IMG/VR virus record: IMGVR_UViG_2695420809_000013
Reading direction: 5' to 3' (one strand)
DNA length: 5,005 nt
Source of the DNA: a virus
Lineage: Duplodnaviria > Heunggongvirae > Uroviricota > Caudoviricetes
This document shows, one piece after another, positions 1 through 5,005 of this stretch. The position numbers and the translations under genes are program-made. The notes beneath the pieces were generated by a model. That model was not told the origin of the DNA. It made no database searches and saw only the letters and a program-made list of their open reading frames with translations. Position 1 is the stretch's first letter. Every line of letters begins with the position of its first letter.

Positions 1-1074
1 TCATTTGTTGATTTCAATTTTGTCCCATTCTCTCCCTCGGCTGTCCCTATACCGCGCCGCCATTGAATCTGATTTATGCCCGAGAAGACGTTGAGCAAAC
101 TTATCGCCAATCTGATTCCGGTATAGCCTCGCCGACAGGCTACGCAGTTCATGGAATGTTGGCGGGTCTCCATCAAATGAGAGTCCAGATGCATTTCTCG
201 CCTTTGTAAAATACTTAGATACTGTTTTCGGGGAAAGCGGTTCGTGATGCGTTGATGCAATTATTGTTTCACTGCCGCTGACCTCCCTGCATTTCTGTAG
301 TGTATCGGCCAATGAGATATTGAGCGCGTCAATCGTTAGCGTCAGCGGAATGGCGAGCTTAGCCCCTGTTTTACCCTGTTCAATGTGAAGATGGTTGTCG
401 TTTATGTCTGACCATTTCATTTTGCACAAATCGCCGACTCTCTGACCTGTAACGACGGCCAAATCCATCGCAAGCCTCAGCCAGATTGGGAGAGGTTCGG
501 CTGCATGGTGAATCGCGACATACTCATTAGCTGTCAGCCTTGAGCGCCTTACTTCTGACTTTGCTGTGCGGGTTGCTGTTACCGGATTCGTAGCCACATG
601 CCCCTCGGCTATTGCCTCACGAAAAACGTCAACAAGGGTTGACCTGATTAATTTTGCGGAAGCCGCTTTACCTTCTGCTACGTAGGTGTTTAGCATTGCT
701 GCCACCTCTTTCGTTGATATGTCAGCGAGCGGTTTGTCCGGCAATTTTCTTCGGATTGCCCTGATTTTGCTGGCGTAGTCGAGTAGAGTTTTCGGCCTGA
801 TACCCCTCTCGCTGAGGATTGTTTCATATCGGTCAAGCCACGCATGAAGAGTGATTGCGTCAGCGCCTTTAATTCTGTCTATCAGTGACTCACGCCTGTT
901 CCCGGATAGCAACTCAATATTGGCCTGTATAGCTTCAGTGATTGCTATACGTCTGTCTCTGCCTAATCCGAACTCTTTACCCGTCCTTGGGTCCCTGTAG
1001 CAGTAATATCCATTGTTTCTTATATAAAGGTTAGGGGGTAAATCCCGGCGCTCATGACTTCGCCTTCTTCCCAT
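1..1074 (-). CDS. int: Lambda-family tyrosine integrase (site-specific recombinase Int), complete 357 aa
   Basis: Full-length ORF; N-terminus MGRRRSHERRDLPPNLYIRNNGYYCYRDPRTGKEFGLGRDRRIAITEA and C-terminal region HELRSLSARLY...LLGH...Y match phage lambda Int as I recall it (catalytic-domain R, H-x-x-R and Y motifs present). Start overlaps the end of xis, as in lambda. Stop codon is at window positions 3..1. Confidence 0.95.
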   Translation of the reverse strand: MGRRRSHERRDLPPNLYIRNNGYYCYRDPRTGKEFGLGRDRRIAITEAIQANIELLSGNRRESLIDRIKGADAITLHAWLDRYETILSERGIRPKTLLDYASKIRAIRRKLPDKPLADISTKEVAAMLNTYVAEGKAASAKLIRSTLVDVFREAIAEGHVATNPVTATRTAKSEVRRSRLTANEYVAIHHAAEPLPIWLRLAMDLAVVTGQRVGDLCKMKWSDINDNHLHIEQGKTGAKLAIPLTLTIDALNISLADTLQKCREVSGSETIIASTHHEPLSPKTVSKYFTKARNASGLSFDGDPPTFHELRSLSARLYRNQIGDKFAQRLLGHKSDSMAARYRDSRGREWDKIEINK

Positions 1075-1270
1075 TTTTGATCCTCTTCAAAAGGCTACCT
1101 GTTACTGGTCGATTTAAGTCAATTTTTACCGCTGATTCGTGGAACAAATACTCTCTTCCATCCTTAACAGGAGGAGGGAATATCCTGCACTCGCGTACCC
1201 ATCGACGAACTGTTTCAAGGCTTCTTGGGCGCCGCTGGCGTGCGTTCCACTCCTGAAGTGTCAAGTACAT
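1052..1270 (-). CDS. xis: Excisionase Xis (72 aa)
   Basis: Translation MYLTLQEWNARQRRPRSLETVRRWVRECRIFPPPVKDGREYLFHESAVK... is nearly identical to lambda Xis from memory. The 3' end overlaps the int start by 23 nt (lambda-like arrangement). GGAG lies 8 nt upstream of the ATG on the minus strand. Confidence 0.93.
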   Translation of the reverse strand: MYLTLQEWNARQRRPRSLETVRRWVRECRIFPPPVKDGREYLFHESAVKIDLNRPVTGSLLKRIKNGKKAKS

Positions 1271-1293
1271 CGCAAAGTCTCCGCAATTACACG

Positions 1294-1320
1294 CAAGAAA
1301 AAGCCGCCATCAGGCGGCTT
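1294..1320 (-). terminator. Candidate intrinsic terminator between the Cys-motif ORF and xis
   Basis: Perfect 8-bp inverted repeat AAGCCGCC/GGCGGCTT (1301-1308 and 1313-1320) with a 4-nt loop; on the minus strand it is followed by TTTTTCTT (plus 1294-1300). It sits about 40 nt downstream of the stop at 1361. Confidence 0.5.
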
Positions 1321-1360
1321 GGTGTTCTTTCAGTTCTTCAATTCGAATATTGGTTACGTC

Positions 1361-1672
1361 TTATTCGATGCGCACTCCTGGTATTTCGCCTTTTGATATT
1401 GCTAAGTCATAAATTTGCGCGGCACTATACCCATCTCGCATCCATGAATCTAAGGCGCGAACAGCCTCGCTACGCTTTTTATCTTCTCTCTCATTTTTGA
1501 TATCAACGAGGACATCAACGCAATTAAGGCAAATGTGGATTTTGTCCTTACATTCGATCATGGCGGCTTTGCCATGATTTCCGCCACACAGTGAGCATAA
1601 ATCTTCAGGGGCTGGCTGGTATTTCTGTAACGTTAGAGGGTTGAATGTTGAACAGGCCATAATCATCTCCAT
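1361..1672 (-). CDS. Hypothetical small Cys-motif protein (CxxC...CxxC, putative zinc ribbon), in the Ea8.5-equivalent position upstream of xis
   Basis: ORF of 103 aa with CSLCGG and CLNC motifs. The likely true start is the third in-frame ATG at 1660 (GGAG 6 nt upstream on the minus strand), giving 99 aa. Resemblance to lambda Ea8.5 is positional and motif-level only, not verified. Confidence 0.55.
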   Translation of the reverse strand: MEMIMACSTFNPLTLQKYQPAPEDLCSLCGGNHGKAAMIECKDKIHICLNCVDVLVDIKNEREDKKRSEAVRALDSWMRDGYSAAQIYDLAISKGEIPGVRIE

Positions 1673-1727
1673 AAAACAAAACTCGCCGTAGCGAGTTCAG
1701 ATAAAAGAAATCCCCGCGAGTGCGAGG
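1671..1727 (-). terminator. Two tandem hairpin plus U-tract elements directly upstream of the Cys-motif ORF start (terminator or attenuator-like)
   Basis: Minus-strand RNA would contain CCUCGC-ACUC-GCGGGG (plus 1712-1727, one G-U wobble) followed by AUUUCUUUUAU, then AACUCGC-UACG-GCGAGUU (plus 1680-1697) followed by UUUUGUUUUAU, which abuts the GGAG and ATG of the next ORF. Confidence 0.4.
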
Positions 1728-1856
1728 ATAGTTATTCATTGTCGATATTTACATTTATTTCGAATATCTTTACTGGGTAATCGCCAAAGTCATATGTTTT
1801 TTATTCTGTTTTATAAGCACTACCAAGTACTGCTTATTACAAATAAGAAAAGGCTG

Positions 1857-1885
1857 AAAAAATATTTAAGGCCACAACTGTGGCC
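1857..1885 (-). terminator. Candidate intrinsic terminator of the LprI-like moron gene
   Basis: Inverted repeat GGCCACA/TGTGGCC at 1870-1885, starting 11 nt after the TAA stop (1896-1898); on the minus strand it is followed by TTAAATATTTTTT (plus 1857-1869). Confidence 0.6.
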
Positions 1886-1895
1886 CTAAATTTAC

Positions 1896-2594
1896 TTACG
1901 GCACTGCGTTAATCAGATTACAAATACCTCTTTTGGCAGGGTCTGAATTCAACTTCTGAAAATTGGCGTTCAACATAGCCGTGTGTAAGTGATTCTCAAC
2001 CTCAAAGAATAAGTCGATTTTGCCCTCTTTGGCTGCCTGTTTCTTCCAAATATTCACTTGGTCATCAGCAATACGACTGGCGCAAGTGAACAAGAACGAA
2101 CTGCCTCTAGGAATGGATGTCGTGCTGTAATACTCACCATCTACTTCTACATATTTAGCTCGGAATGACTCTAAGGTTAGCTCATTGCCGTTCTTGACCG
2201 ACTTAGCTTCTGCCTTACTTGTTTCTTCCTGCTCTTCAGAATGTTTCTGCGCCGACGTGGGTATGTCATTGGCCGCTGTTACGCTGACTGAACTCCCCAA
2301 ACCTTTGAGGCCATTAATTTGGATAAGATAAGCCAGCTCCAGAGCCTTATTATCAGTGAGTTTTCCACGCATATTTACCCACTGACGTTGAACCATTTTT
2401 AGGGTGTCTGCGTTCTCTGGGTTTCCTTTGAGGGCACTAGAATAGGCAGAGCTAAGCTGTTCGTCTAATTTTGACAGACGTTCGTTATCGCAGATTTTAT
2501 GTTCGATTGCTGTCGAAGCCTTTTGGCAGTCAAAGCTGGCTGCAAATGCACCCGGCGATGCCACTAACAATGATGCCAGTAGGATATTTTTCAT
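1896..2594 (-). CDS. Secreted protein with an N-terminal LprI/DUF1311-like domain and an uncharacterised C-terminal domain (moron-like cargo gene)
   Basis: Start assigned to the second ATG (2594-2592) because GGAG lies 6 nt upstream on the minus strand; the ORF-track start at 2621 falls inside the putative promoter. Signal peptide MKNILLASLLVASPGAFA|AS with an AxA cleavage motif and no lipobox. Mature N-terminus CQKASTAIEHKICDNERLSKLDEQLSSAYSSAL...VQRQWVNMR fits the DUF1311 pattern (C..A....E..IC....L...D..L...Y......QR.W) from memory. Four Cys residues suggest periplasmic disulfides. The region is visibly more AT-rich than its flanks. Confidence 0.75.
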   Translation of the reverse strand: MKNILLASLLVASPGAFAASFDCQKASTAIEHKICDNERLSKLDEQLSSAYSSALKGNPENADTLKMVQRQWVNMRGKLTDNKALELAYLIQINGLKGLGSSVSVTAANDIPTSAQKHSEEQEETSKAEAKSVKNGNELTLESFRAKYVEVDGEYYSTTSIPRGSSFLFTCASRIADDQVNIWKKQAAKEGKIDLFFEVENHLHTAMLNANFQKLNSDPAKRGICNLINAVP

Positions 2595-2599
2595 ATTCA

Positions 2600-2672
2600 C
2601 TCCATAAATACAAAAGCGCATTACTATAGCACTTAACCGATCGCTTATCTCGCCCGTTCGTCATTCTTATCT
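2600..2672 (-). promoter_or_regulatory. Candidate sigma70 promoter (extended -10) for the LprI-like gene, with upstream direct repeats
   Basis: On the minus strand, TGcTATAGT (the -10 hexamer TATAGT corresponds to plus 2628-2623, with TG at 2631-2630) lies about 30 nt upstream of the ATG. The -35 is weak (GAGATA at a 17-nt spacer). A 7-bp direct repeat CTTATCT on the plus strand at 2644-2650 and 2666-2672 (AGATAAG on the minus strand) overlaps and lies upstream of the -35 region. Confidence 0.35.
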
Positions 2673-2724
2673 AACCAGAACATGCGACTGCCACAGCACA
2701 TGTCGAGGATTGCTGCATGTCCAG

Positions 2725-3162
2725 TCACTGGTTGCCTCCTTTGCGAAGCTGGGCGGCTAACTCATCACATATGTGCGTCAAAGAGCAAAGTTTGATTGAT
2801 GGGTGTTCGCGCATCATCTCAACCCCCTGCGCCCGCACTTCAGACAGGAAAGAGTCGGTGGCTGGGGTTTCAACACGGATGCTGTCGCGCAAGATGAAAA
2901 ATGCATTGAGCATTCCAGTCTCTGGCACTTCATCCTGATGCTTCTCATACTCATCAAGAGCCTTCATCATCTCTGCTCCGAATGGTTGAGGGTGCACAGA
3001 CTTCAGCTCCGCATTCTCCGCCGCCAGCGCCGCGCACTTGGCCTCCGCTTCAGCAAATTTGCGTACCAGATATTCAGCATTTGTTTCGTTAACCTTTAAA
3101 TCACATGGGATGCATTTACCTTTCAGAAATCCATCCATCTCAATTAGTGTCATTCGTTTCAT
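2725..3162 (-). CDS. Hypothetical protein (145 aa from the ATG at 3162; the ORF-track start at 3180 is a GTG)
   Basis: Long ORF in the same orientation as the operon. The ATG at 3162-3160 overlaps the TGA of the upstream small ORF (ATGA coupling) and has a GGAG/GGGAAG purine-rich stretch upstream. Contains a predicted coiled-coil-like stretch ([19 protein letters not shown]). No family assigned. Confidence 0.6.
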
Positions 3163-3323
3163 TTCTTCCCACTCCGCCACATCGCATTCAGATATTTGTT
3201 TTGATTCACTGACGGAGAAGAATTTCTCTTAAGCAATTCCTCTCTCGATGGCATTGGCTTTACGCGTTGGCGAATAATCATTTCTGCCGGAAGAATGCCG
3301 GGATTGTATGCAAGTCCTCTCAT
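3159..3323 (-). CDS. Hypothetical small protein (54 aa; start ambiguous, alternative ATG at 3341)
   Basis: The ATG at 3323 is preceded by GAGG with an 8-nt spacer, and the stop overlaps the next gene start in ATGA fashion, suggesting real translation. The longer 104-aa track ORF (start 3473) would overlap the preceding gene by about 140 nt in another frame and is less likely. Confidence 0.35.
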
Positions 3324-3333
3324 GGTAAATTCC

Positions 3334-3627
3334 TCAGTCATTACTGATAGCGCCATAGCGTGATCGATAATTACGCAGGCGCGGGTCAATTTCAGGGAAG
3401 TGGGTATATGTGGCTTTGCGGAATGGTCGGATTGATGTCTGGTAAATTCGCTCGCGTTCTTCTTTCTCTGCAAGCCATATACAATGGCGAAATTCCTTTT
3501 CCTCTTTCGTTTCCTGCGGTAGCGACATTATCCGATCGTAGTTTTTTCTGAATTTATCCAGCACCTCCGATACGGAATTGCCGGAACAGCGGCGCGGGTC
3601 ATCCGCACCATACAGAGGCGCTGGCAT
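3334..3627 (-). CDS. Hypothetical protein (97 aa)
   Basis: Strong SD AGGAG 6 nt upstream of the ATG (3627), 13 nt after the ssb stop. Charged protein rich in K/E/R; no family recognised by eye. Confidence 0.6.
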
Positions 3628-3640
3628 GATTTTCTCCTGA

Positions 3641-4147
3641 TTAAATTGCGTGAATAGCGTGACGAGGGAAGGGGAGAGTTACTGGTGCAAAGGGTATATC
3701 GTCGTCAAAATCCATCGGAGGTTCGTTGTGTTGTGCTGGTGATGATTGCTGCTGTGGCTTCTGTGATTGCCTGCTGGCTGCTTGTTGTTTGCTGTCGCCA
3801 ATGCCGCCAAGCATTTGCATCACGCCATTAATTCCGACATGAACCTCGGTTGTGTAACGGTCTTGCCCTGACTGGTCTTTCCACTTTCTGGTTCTCAGCA
3901 TTCCCTCGAAATAAATCTGATCACCTTTTTTCACATACTGCCCCACGACCTCAGCCAGTTTCCCGGATACAGCAACACGATGCCATTCAGTCAATTACTT
4001 TTGCTCGCCAGTATTTTTATCTCGCCATTGTTCTGACGTGGCTATTGTCAGGTTAGCGAACGCTGTTCCTGATGGTGAGTATCGAACTTCCGGGTCTTGT
4101 CCTACCCGACCAAGGATAATCACCTTATTTATCCCGCGAGAACTCAT
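3641..4147 (-). pseudogene. ssb: Single-stranded DNA-binding protein (SSB) gene interrupted by an in-frame TAA and carrying a 15-aa extension past the canonical DDDIPF C-terminus
   Basis: N-terminal part [50 protein letters not shown] (4147-3998) and C-terminal part [63 protein letters not shown]...[11 protein letters not shown] both align with E. coli SSB as remembered, in the same frame, separated by TAA at 3997-3995 where E. coli has Glu. The reading frame then continues past IPF as [15 protein letters not shown] before the stop at 3643-3641. The start has a GAGGTGGAG SD and overlaps the rusA stop (ATGA). Confidence 0.8.
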
Positions 4148-4527
4148 TTGCTCCACCTCTTGCCAGTTTTTATGTTGCTTATAATTGATTGAGATACACC
4201 CATGACCGGTCCCCACTCAACCAGCATTCTTTTCACCTGACTGTCGTCTTCCCACACACCCGCGTGGGTCAGGGCGTCAAACAGCGCCTTGTTATAGTTG
4301 TCCAGATCGCGGATCCGGTTATCCGGAGGAAACAACACAATCTCTACTGAAGCTGGTGCCGACGTTGGTTTCGGCAAACGACGTAACTGCTCAACTATTG
4401 CTGCGCACGCCGCGCTCTGGAATTTTCGCCCCGCCGCGCTTATCAGGCTCTTACCAGCAAACGCCCCTTTGTTGGGGTGTCGCCAGTACGTGTTCACGCT
4501 GGGCGGAAAAGGCAGAATCAGCTTCAT
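4144..4527 (-). CDS. rusA: RusA-family Holliday-junction resolvase (crossover junction endodeoxyribonuclease)
   Basis: [13 protein letters not shown] and [26 protein letters not shown] match E. coli RusA motifs ([39 protein letters not shown]) from memory, including the catalytic Asp residues. GAGAGGGG SD upstream; the ATG overlaps the stop of the upstream gene and the stop overlaps the ssb ATG. Confidence 0.8.
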
Positions 4528-4850
4528 ACTTTCAGGCCCCTCTCATGTAACCAGTGGGCTGCACGCAGCCTGCTGTTTTCCTCACCGGCAAGCAGTGCGC
4601 GGATAATCCCGACCGCCTCGCTGTCGTCGTCCTTCATCGCGGTATGAAGCGTTATCCCCCGGGCCACGCCACGCTTTATCGTGATGACGCCTTTTTTCTC
4701 CAGTGCTCGAAGATGCTCCACCGCTGCATTCACTGAACGGTATCCCAGCATGGTTGCCACCTCCTGATTGGTTGGCGGGAAGCCACGTTCTTTCTGGTAA
4801 GAAATCAGCATATCCAGCACCTGCTGCTGGCATTGAGTTAACGTCGTCAT
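4524..4850 (-). CDS. LexA-family DNA-binding-domain protein lacking the S24 autopeptidase domain (108 aa)
   Basis: LTQCQQQVLDMLISYQKERGFPPTNQEVATMLGYRSVNAAVEHLRALEKKGVITIKRGVARGITL parallels the E. coli LexA N-terminal winged-helix domain ([65 protein letters not shown]) as recalled. The C-terminal 35 aa have no Ala-Gly cleavage context and no Ser/Lys dyad domain. GGGAG SD; translationally coupled to flanking genes. Confidence 0.75.
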   Translation of the reverse strand: MTTLTQCQQQVLDMLISYQKERGFPPTNQEVATMLGYRSVNAAVEHLRALEKKGVITIKRGVARGITLHTAMKDDDSEAVGIIRALLAGEENSRLRAAHWLHERGLKV

Positions 4851-5005
4851 GCAGCCATCTCCCTGACCAGTTTTTCCGCCTGCTGGCGAACCTGCGCCAG
4901 AAAGGCCTCACCACATGCCTCAAGTTCATCGCGCCCGATGTAGCTGATTGCCGGTCCCTTCCAGGTCTTGTCGAAAACAGCAATAGCACCAGCGAAGAAA
5001 GCGCC
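4847..5005 (-). CDS. Hypothetical protein, 3' portion only (N-terminus lies beyond the window end)
   Basis: Open frame from the window edge, hand-translated as ...GAFFAGAIAVFDKTWKGPAISYIGRDELEACGEAFLAQVRQQAEKLVREMAA, ending in a TGA (4849-4847) that overlaps the ATG of the LexA-like gene. Absent from the ORF track because it has no in-window start. Confidence 0.5.
   Translation of the reverse strand, partial: GAFFAGAIAVFDKTWKGPAISYIGRDELEACGEAFLAQVRQQAEKLVREMAA

What the first reader, a model, noticed from the sequence alone, without database searches (positions are those of the whole stretch)
4524..4850. LexA DNA-binding domain without the autoprotease domain, translationally coupled to RusA and SSB
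A 108-aa protein keeps a recognisable LexA N-terminal winged-helix domain but replaces the S24 self-cleaving domain with a short 35-aa tail. Such a protein could not be inactivated by RecA-stimulated autocleavage. It might occupy SOS boxes as a non-cleavable LexA mimic to modulate the host SOS response or prophage induction, or regulate the adjacent recombination genes. Its stop and the rusA start overlap (ATGA), and rusA and ssb overlap likewise, so the three are a co-translated module. I cannot tell from the sequence whether this domain architecture is already catalogued.
Basis: partly seen in the sequence, partly recalled or inferred. Interest (0 to 1): 0.7.

Follow-up and report, generated by a model that had tools for sequence, protein, structure and literature searches.

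The report
Phage LexA-like DNA binder lacking protease
This is an intact copy of a very common, already catalogued but never characterised prophage gene: a LexA-type DNA-binding domain with a short helical tail and no self-cleaving domain. Here it sits in a decaying E. coli prophage, and its apparent link to SSB comes from a deletion.

Summary
The ORF at 4524-4850 (-) is real. It encodes 108 aa with a full LexA_DNA_bind winged helix (Pfam 2.9e-19; model 1.1 A rmsd to DNA-bound E. coli LexA), no S24 protease in any frame, and a conserved two-helix tail.

It is not new. It is 100% identical to RefSeq WP_001547992.1, matches PHROG 362 end to end, equals SfV orf42, and occurs in 2233 of 5426 complete E. 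coli genomes under strong purifying selection (pN/pS 0.05).

The dam/lexA-like/rusA ATGA overlaps are conserved but typical of this packed operon. The rusA/ssb overlap is an accident. A 1999-bp deletion at 4204|4205 fused rusA codons 1-108 to the last 19 codons of an HNH gene, and ssb carries a nonsense codon (3995-3997).

Function is untested. Four of the five reported LexA DNA-contact residues are kept (S39, N41, A42, E45). The phages that carry the gene are rich in canonical SOS boxes (74 strong boxes in 80 loci, against 0 in 80 control loci).

My best guess is therefore a RecA-insensitive LexA surrogate made during lytic growth. A gp6-like regulator with its own operator is the main rival. 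Interest is moderate to low.

The parts
4524..4850 (-). Gene for the 108-aa short LexA-family protein (SfV Orf42 type, PHROG 362), with TGA stop at 4524-4526.
   Evidence: ORF list. Pfam PF01726 2.9e-19. phrog_362 4.3e-59 over residues 1-108 of a 106-position profile. 100% identical to WP_001547992.1 in L001 and L002.
4656..4850 (-). Residues 1-65: LexA-type winged helix-turn-helix DNA-binding domain.
   Evidence: Pfam covers the full 65-position profile. The AF2 model has helices 6-22, 28-35, 40-52 and strands 56-58, 66-68. Foldseek to 3jso_B (LexA-DNA complex): rmsd 1.1 A over 68 columns, 50% identity.
4695..4736 (-). Residues 39-52: recognition helix SVNAAVEHLRALEK (E. coli LexA has [14 protein letters not shown]).
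   Evidence: Alignments. S39 is invariant and N41 nearly invariant in the family. LexA contact residues S39, N41, A42, E44, E45 as stated in PMC13416735. The Asn41-base contact is described in PMC5999292.
4527..4634 (-). Residues 73-108: acidic linker plus two amphipathic helices (75-88 and 93-103). This is the family-specific tail that stands where LexA has its S24 domain. It is a candidate dimerisation element.
   Evidence: AF2 pLDDT is about 86-89 for the helices and 62 for the linker block. Hydrophobic positions 79, 80, 82, 83, 86, 87, 97, 100 and 101 are conserved, with A97 and L101 invariant across 21 sequences down to 39% identity. No structural match for the tail in PDB.
4847..5005 (-). 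3' end (52 codons in the window) of a phage N-6-adenine methyltransferase (dam) gene. Its TGA overlaps the lexA-like ATG (ATGA at 4847-4850).
   Evidence: TIGR01712 matches profile positions 135-165 of 165. phrog_111. RefSeq annotation in L001 and L002.
4205..4527 (-). rusA-derived part (codons 1-108) of the chimeric 127-aa ORF. Its ATG overlaps the lexA-like stop (ATGA at 4524-4527).
   Evidence: Pfam RusA 8.3e-14. Identical to intact RusA of L001 and SfV up to residue 108.
4144..4204 (-). Last 19 codons plus stop of an HNH endonuclease gene, fused in frame to rusA by a 1999-bp deletion whose junction lies between 4204 and 4205. Its stop overlaps the ssb ATG (ATGA at 4144-4147).
   Evidence: Base-by-base comparison with L002. 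The tail [19 protein letters not shown] equals the HNH C-terminus. The chimeric protein is found on 14 natural contigs.
3641..4147 (-). ssb pseudogene: a phage SSB reading frame broken by an in-frame TAG at 3995-3997 (E51*).
   Evidence: Translation compared with the intact L002 ssb; the single difference is at 3997. Both halves match Pfam SSB. L006 carries the same 117-aa remnant.

Best explanation
SHOWN:
- The gene encodes a member of the short LexA-family proteins of lambdoid enterobacterial phages (SfV Orf42, PHROG 362).
- The protein has a LexA-type winged-helix domain whose recognition helix is nearly that of E. coli LexA. This is followed by a family-specific pair of amphipathic helices. 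There is no S24 protease.
- In intact phages it lies in the rightward early operon. The order is replication genes, PerC-like, Dam, LexA-like, RusA, KilA-N/DUF968, Q.
- It is under strong purifying selection.
- In this window it is an intact copy inside a rearranged, decaying prophage next to mdtABCD.

INFERRED (most likely mechanism):
- It is made from the early rightward operon after induction or infection.
- It dimerises through the helical tail and possibly through NTD-NTD contacts on DNA, as LexA does.
- It binds LexA-type CTGT-N8-ACAG operators.
- Lacking the protease domain and the RecA*-docking domain, it is insensitive to RecA*. It can therefore re-occupy SOS boxes once host LexA has been destroyed.
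- The boxes concerned are those these phages carry (inside the cI gene, before a KilA-N gene, before dinI, at a late methylase gene) and potentially host ones. This would give timed shut-off of LexA-controlled phage genes and damp the SOS response during lytic growth.
- Whether it is expressed in this cryptic prophage is unknown.
For: Identity and architecture:
- Pfam, NCBIfam, PHROG and PDB matches.
- AF2 model with pLDDT 84, and Foldseek rmsd 1.1 A to DNA-bound LexA.
- No S24 in any frame.

Functional constraint:
- The tail is conserved to about 40% identity.
- 75 of 75 alleles recovered from 80 viral loci are intact (in 5 loci my start-matching script did not find the gene); 50 are distinct; pN/pS = 0.05.
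- The gene is present in 2233 of 5426 complete E. coli genomes.

Expression context:
- Same position and 4-nt overlaps in L001, SfV, mEp460 and cdtI.
- mEp390, with only 44% protein identity, has the same position.

DNA target:
- 4 of the 5 reported LexA contact residues are retained: S39, N41, A42, E45.
- The wing residues R64-G65-I66 are invariant.
- The CTD supplies LexA's dimerisation and cleavage, and the NTDs also contact each other on the operator (PMC3159453). A different dimeriser could therefore still fit the same box.

SOS wiring of carrier phages:
- In 1.31 Mb around the gene (80 loci), CTGT-N8-ACAG occurs 104 times, against 1-26 for other spacings.
- There are 74 strong boxes in 57 loci, falling into four main recurrent sequence types plus rare variants, at three positions.
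- 80 control loci (1.25 Mb) around another RusA type with no LexA-like gene have 4 such sites and 0 strong boxes.
- One box class lies 764 nt from the gene's start, just past rusA and upstream of a KilA-N gene.
- mEp460 and cdtI also carry tandem boxes before dinI.
Against: - There is no experimental datum for this family. Six literature searches found none.
- E44 of LexA is Val here, and distant family members vary at position 45, so specificity may differ.
- Dimerisation through the tail is inferred only.
- The box enrichment compares a few clonal phage lineages and reflects linkage. The late-methylase box is intact in Citrobacter phage phiNP, which has no LexA-like gene, and degraded in Klebsiella phage Kp4866-6, which has one.
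- Those boxes are in any case explained by host LexA.
- The window and its cryptic prophage contain no SOS box.
- No convincing promoter was found for the block.
- The one characterised phage analogue, GIL01 gp6, recognises its own site and activates transcription.
Confidence: 0.45

Rival explanations
1. A gp6-like phage regulator. The LexA-derived winged helix has been re-tuned to a phage-specific operator that is not an SOS box. From that site it activates or represses phage transcription, for example late genes, Q, or the neighbouring dam/rusA genes.
For: GIL01 gp6 is a 66-aa LexA_DNA_bind-only protein (PF01726 7.9e-14). It binds GaCACAnnTGTGaC at position -43.5 of the late promoter P3 and activates it (PMC6182141). 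The present gene likewise sits in an early operon just upstream of the late regulator Q. E44 is Val, and the recognition helix varies in distant relatives. PHROG labels the family simply 'transcriptional repressor'.
Against: The base-contacting residues match LexA, not gp6: gp6's critical K38 aligns with N41 here. I found no conserved non-SOS palindrome. There is no detectable pairwise similarity to gp6. gp6 has no tail.
Confidence: 0.3
2. A DNA-binding accessory protein of phage replication, recombination or methylation rather than a transcription factor. It would work with Dam and/or RusA on phage DNA.
For: It is always flanked by dam and rusA with 4-nt overlaps in the close family. It gives a weak hit to a replication-initiator O-like PHROG (phrog_678, E=0.009). 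nin-type regions are rich in recombination functions.
Against: The neighbours are not obligatory. SfIV has PerC directly upstream. mEp390 has a replication-region protein upstream. In EPP-1 rusA lies elsewhere. The Klebsiella phage has no rusA nearby. 4-nt overlaps link almost all genes of this operon, so they carry no specific functional signal.
Confidence: 0.1
3. A protein-level decoy. The tail, whose start aligns with LexA's linker and cleavage region (LLAGE against VAAGE), would engage the active site of LexA, CI or UmuD, or RecA* or ClpXP. It would modulate cleavage or degradation rather than bind DNA as its main job.
For: HMMER extends the alignment to LexA residues 79-86, placing A88-G89 opposite the scissile A84-G85.
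Against: The Ala-Gly pair is not conserved in family members below about 65% identity. The segment is predicted helical, not an extended cleavage loop. The conserved features of the DNA-binding surface argue for DNA binding.
Confidence: 0.05
4. A 3'-truncated remnant (pseudogene) of a full-length LexA or CI repressor.
For: It lies in a prophage that is visibly decaying: chimeric rusA, nonsense codon in ssb, neighbouring gene fragments.
Against: The same 106-108 aa length with a conserved tail is seen across Escherichia, Shigella, Citrobacter, Salmonella and Hafnia, and in relatives at about 40% identity. There is a full-length match to a 106-position PHROG profile. pN/pS is 0.05. No S24 remnant exists in any frame. 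Functional phages carry it.
Confidence: 0.01

Closest known systems
E. coli LexA repressor (N-terminal domain; PDB 1LEA, 3JSO)
   Same: The winged-HTH fold is the same (rmsd 1.1 A) with about 50% identity over residues 1-68. The recognition helix keeps S39, N41, A42, E45, H46 and L47, and the wing keeps R64-G65-I66.
   Different: There is no S24 Ser/Lys protease or dimerisation domain, so no RecA*-dependent self-cleavage. Two short helices stand in its place. It scores 70.2 against the TIGR00498 cut-off of 110.95. E44 is Val. It is phage-encoded in an early lytic operon, not an autoregulated chromosomal gene.
Shigella phage SfV Orf42 / PHROG 362 / RefSeq WP_001547992.1 ('LexA family transcriptional regulator')
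   Same: It is the same protein family: 94-100% identity, the same length, and in intact phages the same neighbours.
   Different: Nothing in the protein differs. Only the context does: here the block is inverted, rusA is fused to an HNH tail, and the prophage is degraded. The family has names but no tested function.
Bacillus tectivirus GIL01 gp6 (truncated LexA homologue that activates late promoter P3; PMC6182141)
   Same: It is phage-encoded, consists of a LexA_DNA_bind domain only with no protease, and is made from the early operon. It establishes the concept of a phage LexA paralogue acting alongside host LexA.
   Different: gp6 is 66 aa with no C-terminal helices. Its key residue K38 sits where this protein keeps LexA's N41. 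BLASTP finds no alignment between the two. The host phylum and phage type differ. gp6 binds a non-LexA palindrome and activates. None of this has been tested for the present protein.
LexA(1-84) N-terminal autocleavage fragment
   Same: It is essentially the same domain content: the DNA-binding domain plus the linker up to an Ala-Gly.
   Different: [quoted passage not shown] The phage protein continues for about 20 more residues, ends in ...GLKV, and has conserved amphipathic helices that could restore dimerisation (inference).

Membership tests
LexA repressor proper (TIGR00498 equivalog; LexA_DNA_bind + Peptidase_S24) | N-terminal LexA-type winged-helix DNA-binding domain | tested here: met
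   PF01726 2.9e-19 over the full profile. 1lea 6e-16. Foldseek 3jso rmsd 1.1 A.
LexA repressor proper (TIGR00498 equivalog; LexA_DNA_bind + Peptidase_S24) | C-terminal S24 serine protease and dimerisation domain (Ser119/Lys156 dyad) | tested here: not met
   The protein ends at residue 108. There is no Peptidase_S24 hit in it or in any other frame nearby. The TIGR00498 match covers only profile positions 1-91 of 203.
LexA repressor proper (TIGR00498 equivalog; LexA_DNA_bind + Peptidase_S24) | Whole-protein score above the curated equivalog cut-off | tested here: not met
   70.2 bits against a cut-off of 110.95. The RefSeq name 'LexA repressor' used in L001 and L002 is therefore an over-annotation.
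LexA repressor proper (TIGR00498 equivalog; LexA_DNA_bind + Peptidase_S24) | Conserved Ala-Gly self-cleavage site | tested here: not met
   A88-G89 aligns with LexA A84-G85. It is replaced in more distant family members, the segment is predicted helical, and no protease is present to cut it.
LexA repressor proper (TIGR00498 equivalog; LexA_DNA_bind + Peptidase_S24) | Binds the CTGT-N8-ACAG SOS box and represses SOS genes | not testable with these tools
   Only indirect evidence: 4 of the 5 reported contact residues are kept, and SOS boxes are abundant in carrier phages.
Short phage LexA-family proteins (PHROG 362; SfV Orf42 type) | Full-length similarity including the C-terminal two-helix tail, at about 106-108 aa | tested here: met
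   phrog_362 4.3e-59, residues 1-108 against profile positions 1-106 of 106. 94-100% identity to SfV, cdtI, mEp460 and Stx2 phage proteins.
Short phage LexA-family proteins (PHROG 362; SfV Orf42 type) | Location in the rightward early operon between the replication genes and Q, usually dam upstream and rusA downstream with 4-nt overlaps | tested here: inconclusive
   The dam and rusA neighbours and the overlaps are present in the window. The rest of the operon is missing or rearranged in this cryptic prophage. The canonical context is seen in L001, SfV, mEp460, cdtI and mEp390.
GIL01 gp6-type truncated LexA homologues (late-promoter activators) | Phage-encoded protein made of a LexA_DNA_bind domain without the protease | tested here: met
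   Both proteins match PF01726 and lack S24.
GIL01 gp6-type truncated LexA homologues (late-promoter activators) | gp6-specific recognition residue (Lys38) and detectable sequence relatedness to gp6 | tested here: not met
   gp6 K38 aligns with N41 of the query and of LexA. BLASTP finds no alignment at E<=100. gp6 is 66 aa and has no tail.
GIL01 gp6-type truncated LexA homologues (late-promoter activators) | Binds a site overlapping the -35 element of a late promoter and activates transcription | not testable with these tools
   No binding site is known for this family. No experiment was found in the literature searches.

The most novel reading that the evidence does not exclude
Lambdoid enterobacterial phages encode a RecA-proof LexA surrogate. 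After host LexA is destroyed, Orf42-type dimers re-occupy canonical SOS boxes. These include phage boxes (inside the cI gene, at a KilA-N or antirepressor-like gene next to rusA, at dinI, at a late methylase) and host boxes. The effect would be to close the SOS window from within: timing the phage's own LexA-controlled genes, and suppressing host SOS functions and LexA-controlled induction of rival prophages. With copies in 41% of complete E. coli genomes, leaky expression could also shape SOS dynamics and Stx-phage induction across strains.
Probability: 0.3. Interest if true: 0.7.

Novelty: already known. Interest (0 to 1): 0.35.

Why it matters
As a sequence feature it is ordinary. It is one of the commonest prophage genes in E. 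coli, it has long been in the databases, and it belongs to a recognised class of phage proteins that carry only a LexA DNA-binding domain.

Two things matter in practice:
- Many records call it 'LexA repressor' or 'SOS-response repressor and protease', which it cannot be. Such labels can mislead counts of lexA paralogues.
- Nobody seems to have tested what it does, although it sits in Stx2, cdt and serotype-converting phages whose induction is SOS-driven.

If it does bind SOS boxes without being cleavable, it would be a phage-encoded brake on the SOS response. That would bear on toxin-phage induction, prophage competition and antibiotic-triggered SOS. The experiments needed are simple.

Tried and rejected
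1. Truncated-pseudogene idea. Rejected: no S24 in any frame, conserved length and tail, pN/pS 0.05.
2. 'lexA-like/rusA/ssb co-translated module'. Rejected: the rusA/ssb junction is created by a 1999-bp deletion, and ssb has a nonsense codon.
3. SOS boxes or other CTGT palindromes in the window or its cryptic prophage. None found.
4. Promoter for the inverted PerC-Dam-LexA-like block. The simple sigma-70 scan found nothing on the right strand. The dam promoter annotated in SfV is weak by eye.
5. Dimer prediction with a linker-joined double sequence.
6. Structural analogue for the tail in PDB or BFVD. Only the winged helix matches.
7. Defence-system membership. PADLOC gave only a weak winged-helix hit to a CARF3 model (3.9e-4), which I judge meaningless.
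8. Co-occurrence of the gene with the SOS-box-bearing late methylase. 28 of 29 phage records carry both. However, phiNP keeps the box without the gene, and Kp4866-6 has the gene with a decayed box. I treat this as linkage, not proof.
9. Literature. Six searches and several papers yielded no functional study of this family. The LexA-DNA structure paper and the LexA review could not be retrieved.
10. E. coli K-12. CPS-53 ends inside the truncated methylase gene yfdM, so K-12 has no copy at that locus and no y-gene data exist.
Full report
**1. The observation**

The minus-strand ORF at 4524-4850 exists exactly as described: ATG at 4850, TGA at 4524-4526, 108 aa. A GGGAG Shine-Dalgarno lies about 9 nt upstream.

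- Pfam places a complete LexA_DNA_bind domain on residues 1-65 (E=2.9e-19, 69 bits against a cut-off of 23.7).
- The best solved relatives are the E. coli LexA N-terminal domain (1lea, 6e-16) and full-length LexA structures.
- There is no Peptidase_S24 match in the protein or in any alternative-frame ORF across 4192-4989. The DNA downstream encodes RusA.
- NCBIfam's LexA equivalog model matches only its first 91 of 203 positions and scores 70.2 against a cut-off of 110.95.

So the core observation, a LexA DNA-binding domain without the autoprotease, is correct and far beyond chance.

**2. What the surroundings really are**

The window is 100% identical over all 5005 nt to E. coli assembly GCA_001284385.1, contig CYEN01000017.1. 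It is the left end of a degraded lambdoid prophage integrated next to mdtABCD.

On the minus strand the window reads, from 5005 down to 1:
- dam (3' end)
- lexA-like
- rusA'-'HNH chimera
- ssb (broken)
- abc2 (anti-RecBCD)
- DUF2737
- two hypothetical genes, an LprI-like gene, one more hypothetical gene
- xis
- int

I compared the window base by base with the closest complete genome, strain Z1323HEC0423 (locus L002). There are two differences.

- A 1999-bp deletion lies between window positions 4204 and 4205. It removes most of an HNH endonuclease gene, a Rad52-family gene, kil and several gene fragments.
- A single C-to-A change at 3997 turns ssb codon 51 (GAG) into TAG.

The 127-aa 'RusA' is therefore RusA residues 1-108 fused in frame to the last 19 residues of the HNH endonuclease, [19 protein letters not shown]. 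The deletion allele is natural, since the chimeric protein is found on 14 public contigs.

Even in the undeleted relative, the PerC-Dam-LexA-like-RusA' block is inverted relative to the NinH-Q part of the prophage and bordered by gene fragments. The block's transcription in this cryptic element is therefore uncertain. A simple promoter scan found nothing on the right strand.

The dam/lexA-like and lexA-like/rusA ATGA overlaps are conserved in L001, SfV, mEp460 and cdtI. But nearly every gene pair in that operon overlaps by 4 nt. The overlaps show operon membership, not a dedicated three-gene module.

**3. The family is common and already catalogued**

- The protein is identical to RefSeq WP_001547992.1.
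- The gene occurs at 90% or higher nucleotide identity in 2233 of 5426 complete E. coli genomes, up to 4 copies each.
- It is found in 61 GenBank phage records, including Shigella phages SfV (orf42), SfII and SfIV, phage cdtI, mEp460, and Stx2a, Stx2c and Stx2k phages.
- It matches PHROG 362 ('transcriptional repressor') end to end (4.3e-59).
- Homologues of 106-108 aa are annotated 'LexA family transcriptional regulator' in Escherichia, Citrobacter, Salmonella and Hafnia.
- An exhaustive HMMER search finds relatives at 39-53% identity with the same length and tail.
- Structure search shows that short LexA-DBD-only proteins are widespread in phages generally.
- Some records call it 'LexA repressor', 'RecA-mediated autopeptidases' or 'SOS-response repressor and protease LexA'. 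Given the missing protease, these names are wrong.
- E. coli K-12 lacks it at the related CPS-53 prophage, which breaks off inside the truncated methylase yfdM. This probably explains the absence of functional data.

Six full-text searches found no study of this family.

**4. Anatomy**

An AlphaFold2 model built from a 21-sequence alignment (mean pLDDT 84.3) shows:
- the LexA winged helix: helices 6-22, 28-35 and 40-52, strands 56-58 and 66-68
- a low-confidence acidic linker around residues 70-74
- two helices, 75-88 and 93-103, at pLDDT about 86-89

[quoted passage not shown] Nothing in the PDB matches the tail.

The recognition helix reads SVNAAVEHLRALEK, against LexA's [14 protein letters not shown].
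- Of the residues reported to contact DNA (Ser39, Asn41, Ala42, Glu44, Glu45; PMC13416735 citing Knegtel 1995; Asn41-base contact in PMC5999292), four are kept and Glu44 is Val.
- S39 and the wing residues R64-G65-I66 are invariant in the family, and N41 is nearly so.
- From my own knowledge, not tested here: LexA proteins that recognise other boxes, such as B. subtilis LexA, differ at exactly these positions. Retention therefore argues for a CTGT-type half-site.

The tail has a conserved amphipathic pattern.
- Hydrophobic residues sit at 79, 80, 82, 83, 86, 87, 97, 100 and 101; A97 and L101 are invariant; polar positions vary.
- This is what one expects of a packing or dimerisation element.
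- HMMER aligns the start of the tail (…VGIIRALLAGE) with LexA's linker and cleavage region (…LPLVGRVAAGE), putting A88-G89 opposite the scissile A84-G85.
- This suggests descent from a full-length LexA, but the Ala-Gly is not conserved in distant members, so it is not a functional site.

The gene is clearly functional. All 75 alleles recovered from 80 viral loci are intact (in the other 5 loci my start-matching script did not find the gene). Fifty are distinct, with mean pS 0.100 and pN 0.005, giving a ratio of 0.05.

**5. Context in intact phages**

In L001, SfV, mEp460 and cdtI the order is: cro, cII-like/antirepressor-like, replication protein, PerC-like, Dam, LexA-like, RusA, KilA-N, DUF968/HNH, Q.
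- In mEp390, at 44% protein identity, the gene sits between a replication-region protein and RusA-DUF968-Q.
- In a Klebsiella phage it sits before DUF968 and Q.
- In Edwardsiella phage EPP-1 a 71-aa tail-less version lies in the same region.

The protein is therefore a delayed-early product made during lytic development. This is inferred from position; no expression data were examined.

**6. Is there a target?**

Neither the window nor its cryptic prophage contains an SOS box. The intact phages that carry the gene do contain them.

- In 80 viral contigs (1.31 Mb, up to ±10 kb around the gene), CTGT-N8-ACAG occurs 104 times, against 1-26 for spacings of 4-12.
- There are 74 strong boxes (8/8 core positions and at least 14/20 to the consensus) in 57 loci.
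- 80 control loci (1.25 Mb) around a different RusA type in lambdoid phages without the gene have 4 N8 sites and no strong box.

In those 80 loci the boxes fall into four main recurrent sequence types plus rare single-locus variants, at three positions; a further dinI class was seen in the complete mEp460 and cdtI genomes:
- inside the S24-type cI gene (for example TACTGTATATAAAAACAGTA, 18/20)
- 764 nt from the lexA-like start, just past rusA and upstream of a KilA-N gene, in 11 loci
- at the 5' end of a late DNA methylase gene
- in tandem before dinI, in mEp460 and cdtI

This fits a phage group heavily wired into LexA control, where a non-cleavable LexA-like binder would have obvious substrates. 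But the evidence is weak as a test.
- Both sets are dominated by a few clonal lineages.
- The boxes are sufficiently explained by host LexA.
- The methylase box and the gene co-occur in 28 of 29 phage records. Yet the box is perfect in Citrobacter phage phiNP, which lacks the gene, and decayed in Klebsiella phage Kp4866-6, which has a homologue. That looks like linkage, not dependence.

**7. Mechanism**

Shown: the protein has a LexA-type DNA-binding surface, lacks the protease/RecA*-responsive domain, has a conserved helical tail, sits in an early lytic operon, and is under purifying selection.

Inferred:
- It dimerises through the tail. In LexA the CTD provides dimerisation, while the NTDs also make an extensive interface on the operator (PMC3159453), so an alternative dimeriser is compatible with the same box.
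- It binds CTGT-N8-ACAG-like sites and is not inactivated by RecA*.
- It therefore restores repression at SOS boxes once host LexA has been cleaved and degraded.

I put this at about 0.45, counting the secure identification together with the uncertain target.

The main rival (0.3) is a gp6-like role. GIL01 gp6 is a 66-aa LexA_DNA_bind-only phage protein that binds its own palindrome at the late promoter and activates it (PMC6182141). However, gp6 has Lys where this protein keeps LexA's Asn41. It has no tail and shows no detectable pairwise similarity.

Minor rivals are a replication, recombination or methylation accessory (0.1), a protein decoy acting through the LexA-linker-like segment (0.05), and a truncated pseudogene (0.01, refuted).

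**8. Verdict**

The finding is real but ordinary in kind.

The residual interest is that the family's function is untested, although it is carried by Stx-, Cdt- and serotype-converting phages. The LexA-surrogate hypothesis is specific, plausible and cheap to test.

Noticed in passing
window 3995-3997 (minus strand; base 3997): The phage ssb gene (3641-4147) carries an in-frame TAG (GAG to TAG, E51*). It is the only base difference from the intact ssb of strain Z1323HEC0423 across window 1-4204. The same 117-aa remnant is called in GCA_001284385.1.
   Followed up: yes
window 4204|4205: Blunt 1999-bp deletion junction with no obvious microhomology. It fuses rusA codons 1-108 to the last 19 codons of an HNH endonuclease gene, removing a Rad52-family gene, kil and several gene fragments. 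The allele is present on 14 public E. coli contigs.
   Followed up: yes
L002 14727-17444 (context of the window in strain Z1323HEC0423): The PerC-Dam-LexA-like-RusA' block is inverted relative to the NinH-Q part of the prophage and flanked by fragments (DnaB-like N-terminus, YdfO', nuclease'). A second, different rusA lies 2 kb away. The prophage appears to be a patchwork of two lambdoid phages.
   Followed up: partly
L001 12187-12206; L009 (mEp460) 31970-31989; about 30 of 80 viral loci, 2.7-5.3 kb upstream of the lexA-like gene: A near-perfect SOS box (TACTGTATATAAAAACAGTA, 18/20; reverse-orientation variants TACTGTTTTTACATACAGTA and TACTGTTTTTATATACAGTA) lies inside the coding sequence of the S24-type cI repressor gene, about 180-210 nt from its start. 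This suggests a LexA-controlled internal promoter or roadblock. I do not know of a description of this.
   Followed up: partly
L017 10765-10784 (and 10 other viral loci): A strong SOS box, TACTGTATTTATGAACAGTG, lies in the short intergenic region right after rusA and about 100 nt upstream of a KilA-N-domain gene. This looks like a LexA-repressed antirepressor-type gene, immediately downstream of the lexA-like/rusA pair.
   Followed up: partly
L003 (SfV) 34170-34189; L009 41021-41040; L010 44083-44102; L096 (phiNP): An SOS box, TACTGTAAAAATAAACAGTG, begins 8 nt after the annotated start codon of a late-region DNA methyltransferase gene downstream of Q. It is perfectly conserved even in Citrobacter phage phiNP at 86% nucleotide identity, but decayed in Klebsiella phage Kp4866-6.
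   Followed up: partly
Protein search, (e.g. P0133 141 aa, P0148 167 aa, P0155 163 aa, P0161 162 aa): Many proteins of about 140-170 aa contain two tandem LexA_DNA_bind domains and no protease. They may be single-chain 'pseudo-dimers', another way to do without the S24 dimerisation domain.
   Followed up: no
Annotations of homologues: The 108-aa protein is variously named 'LexA repressor', 'RecA-mediated autopeptidases' and 'SOS-response repressor and protease LexA', although it has no protease domain. The adjacent Dam methylase is mislabelled 'phosphoadenosine phosphosulfate reductase' in several RefSeq phage records.
   Followed up: yes
window 1361-1672 (minus strand): A 103-aa ORF with two Cys pairs (CSLC ... 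CLNC), suggesting a small zinc-binding protein. It is annotated hypothetical in relatives. It had no PADLOC hit, and no Pfam family is recorded for the corresponding gene call in the related contigs.
   Followed up: no
window 1896-2621 (minus strand): A 241-aa ORF with an N-terminal signal-like sequence, annotated as an LprI-family lysozyme inhibitor. It sits between xis and the early-left genes and is probably a moron (lysogenic-conversion gene).
   Followed up: no
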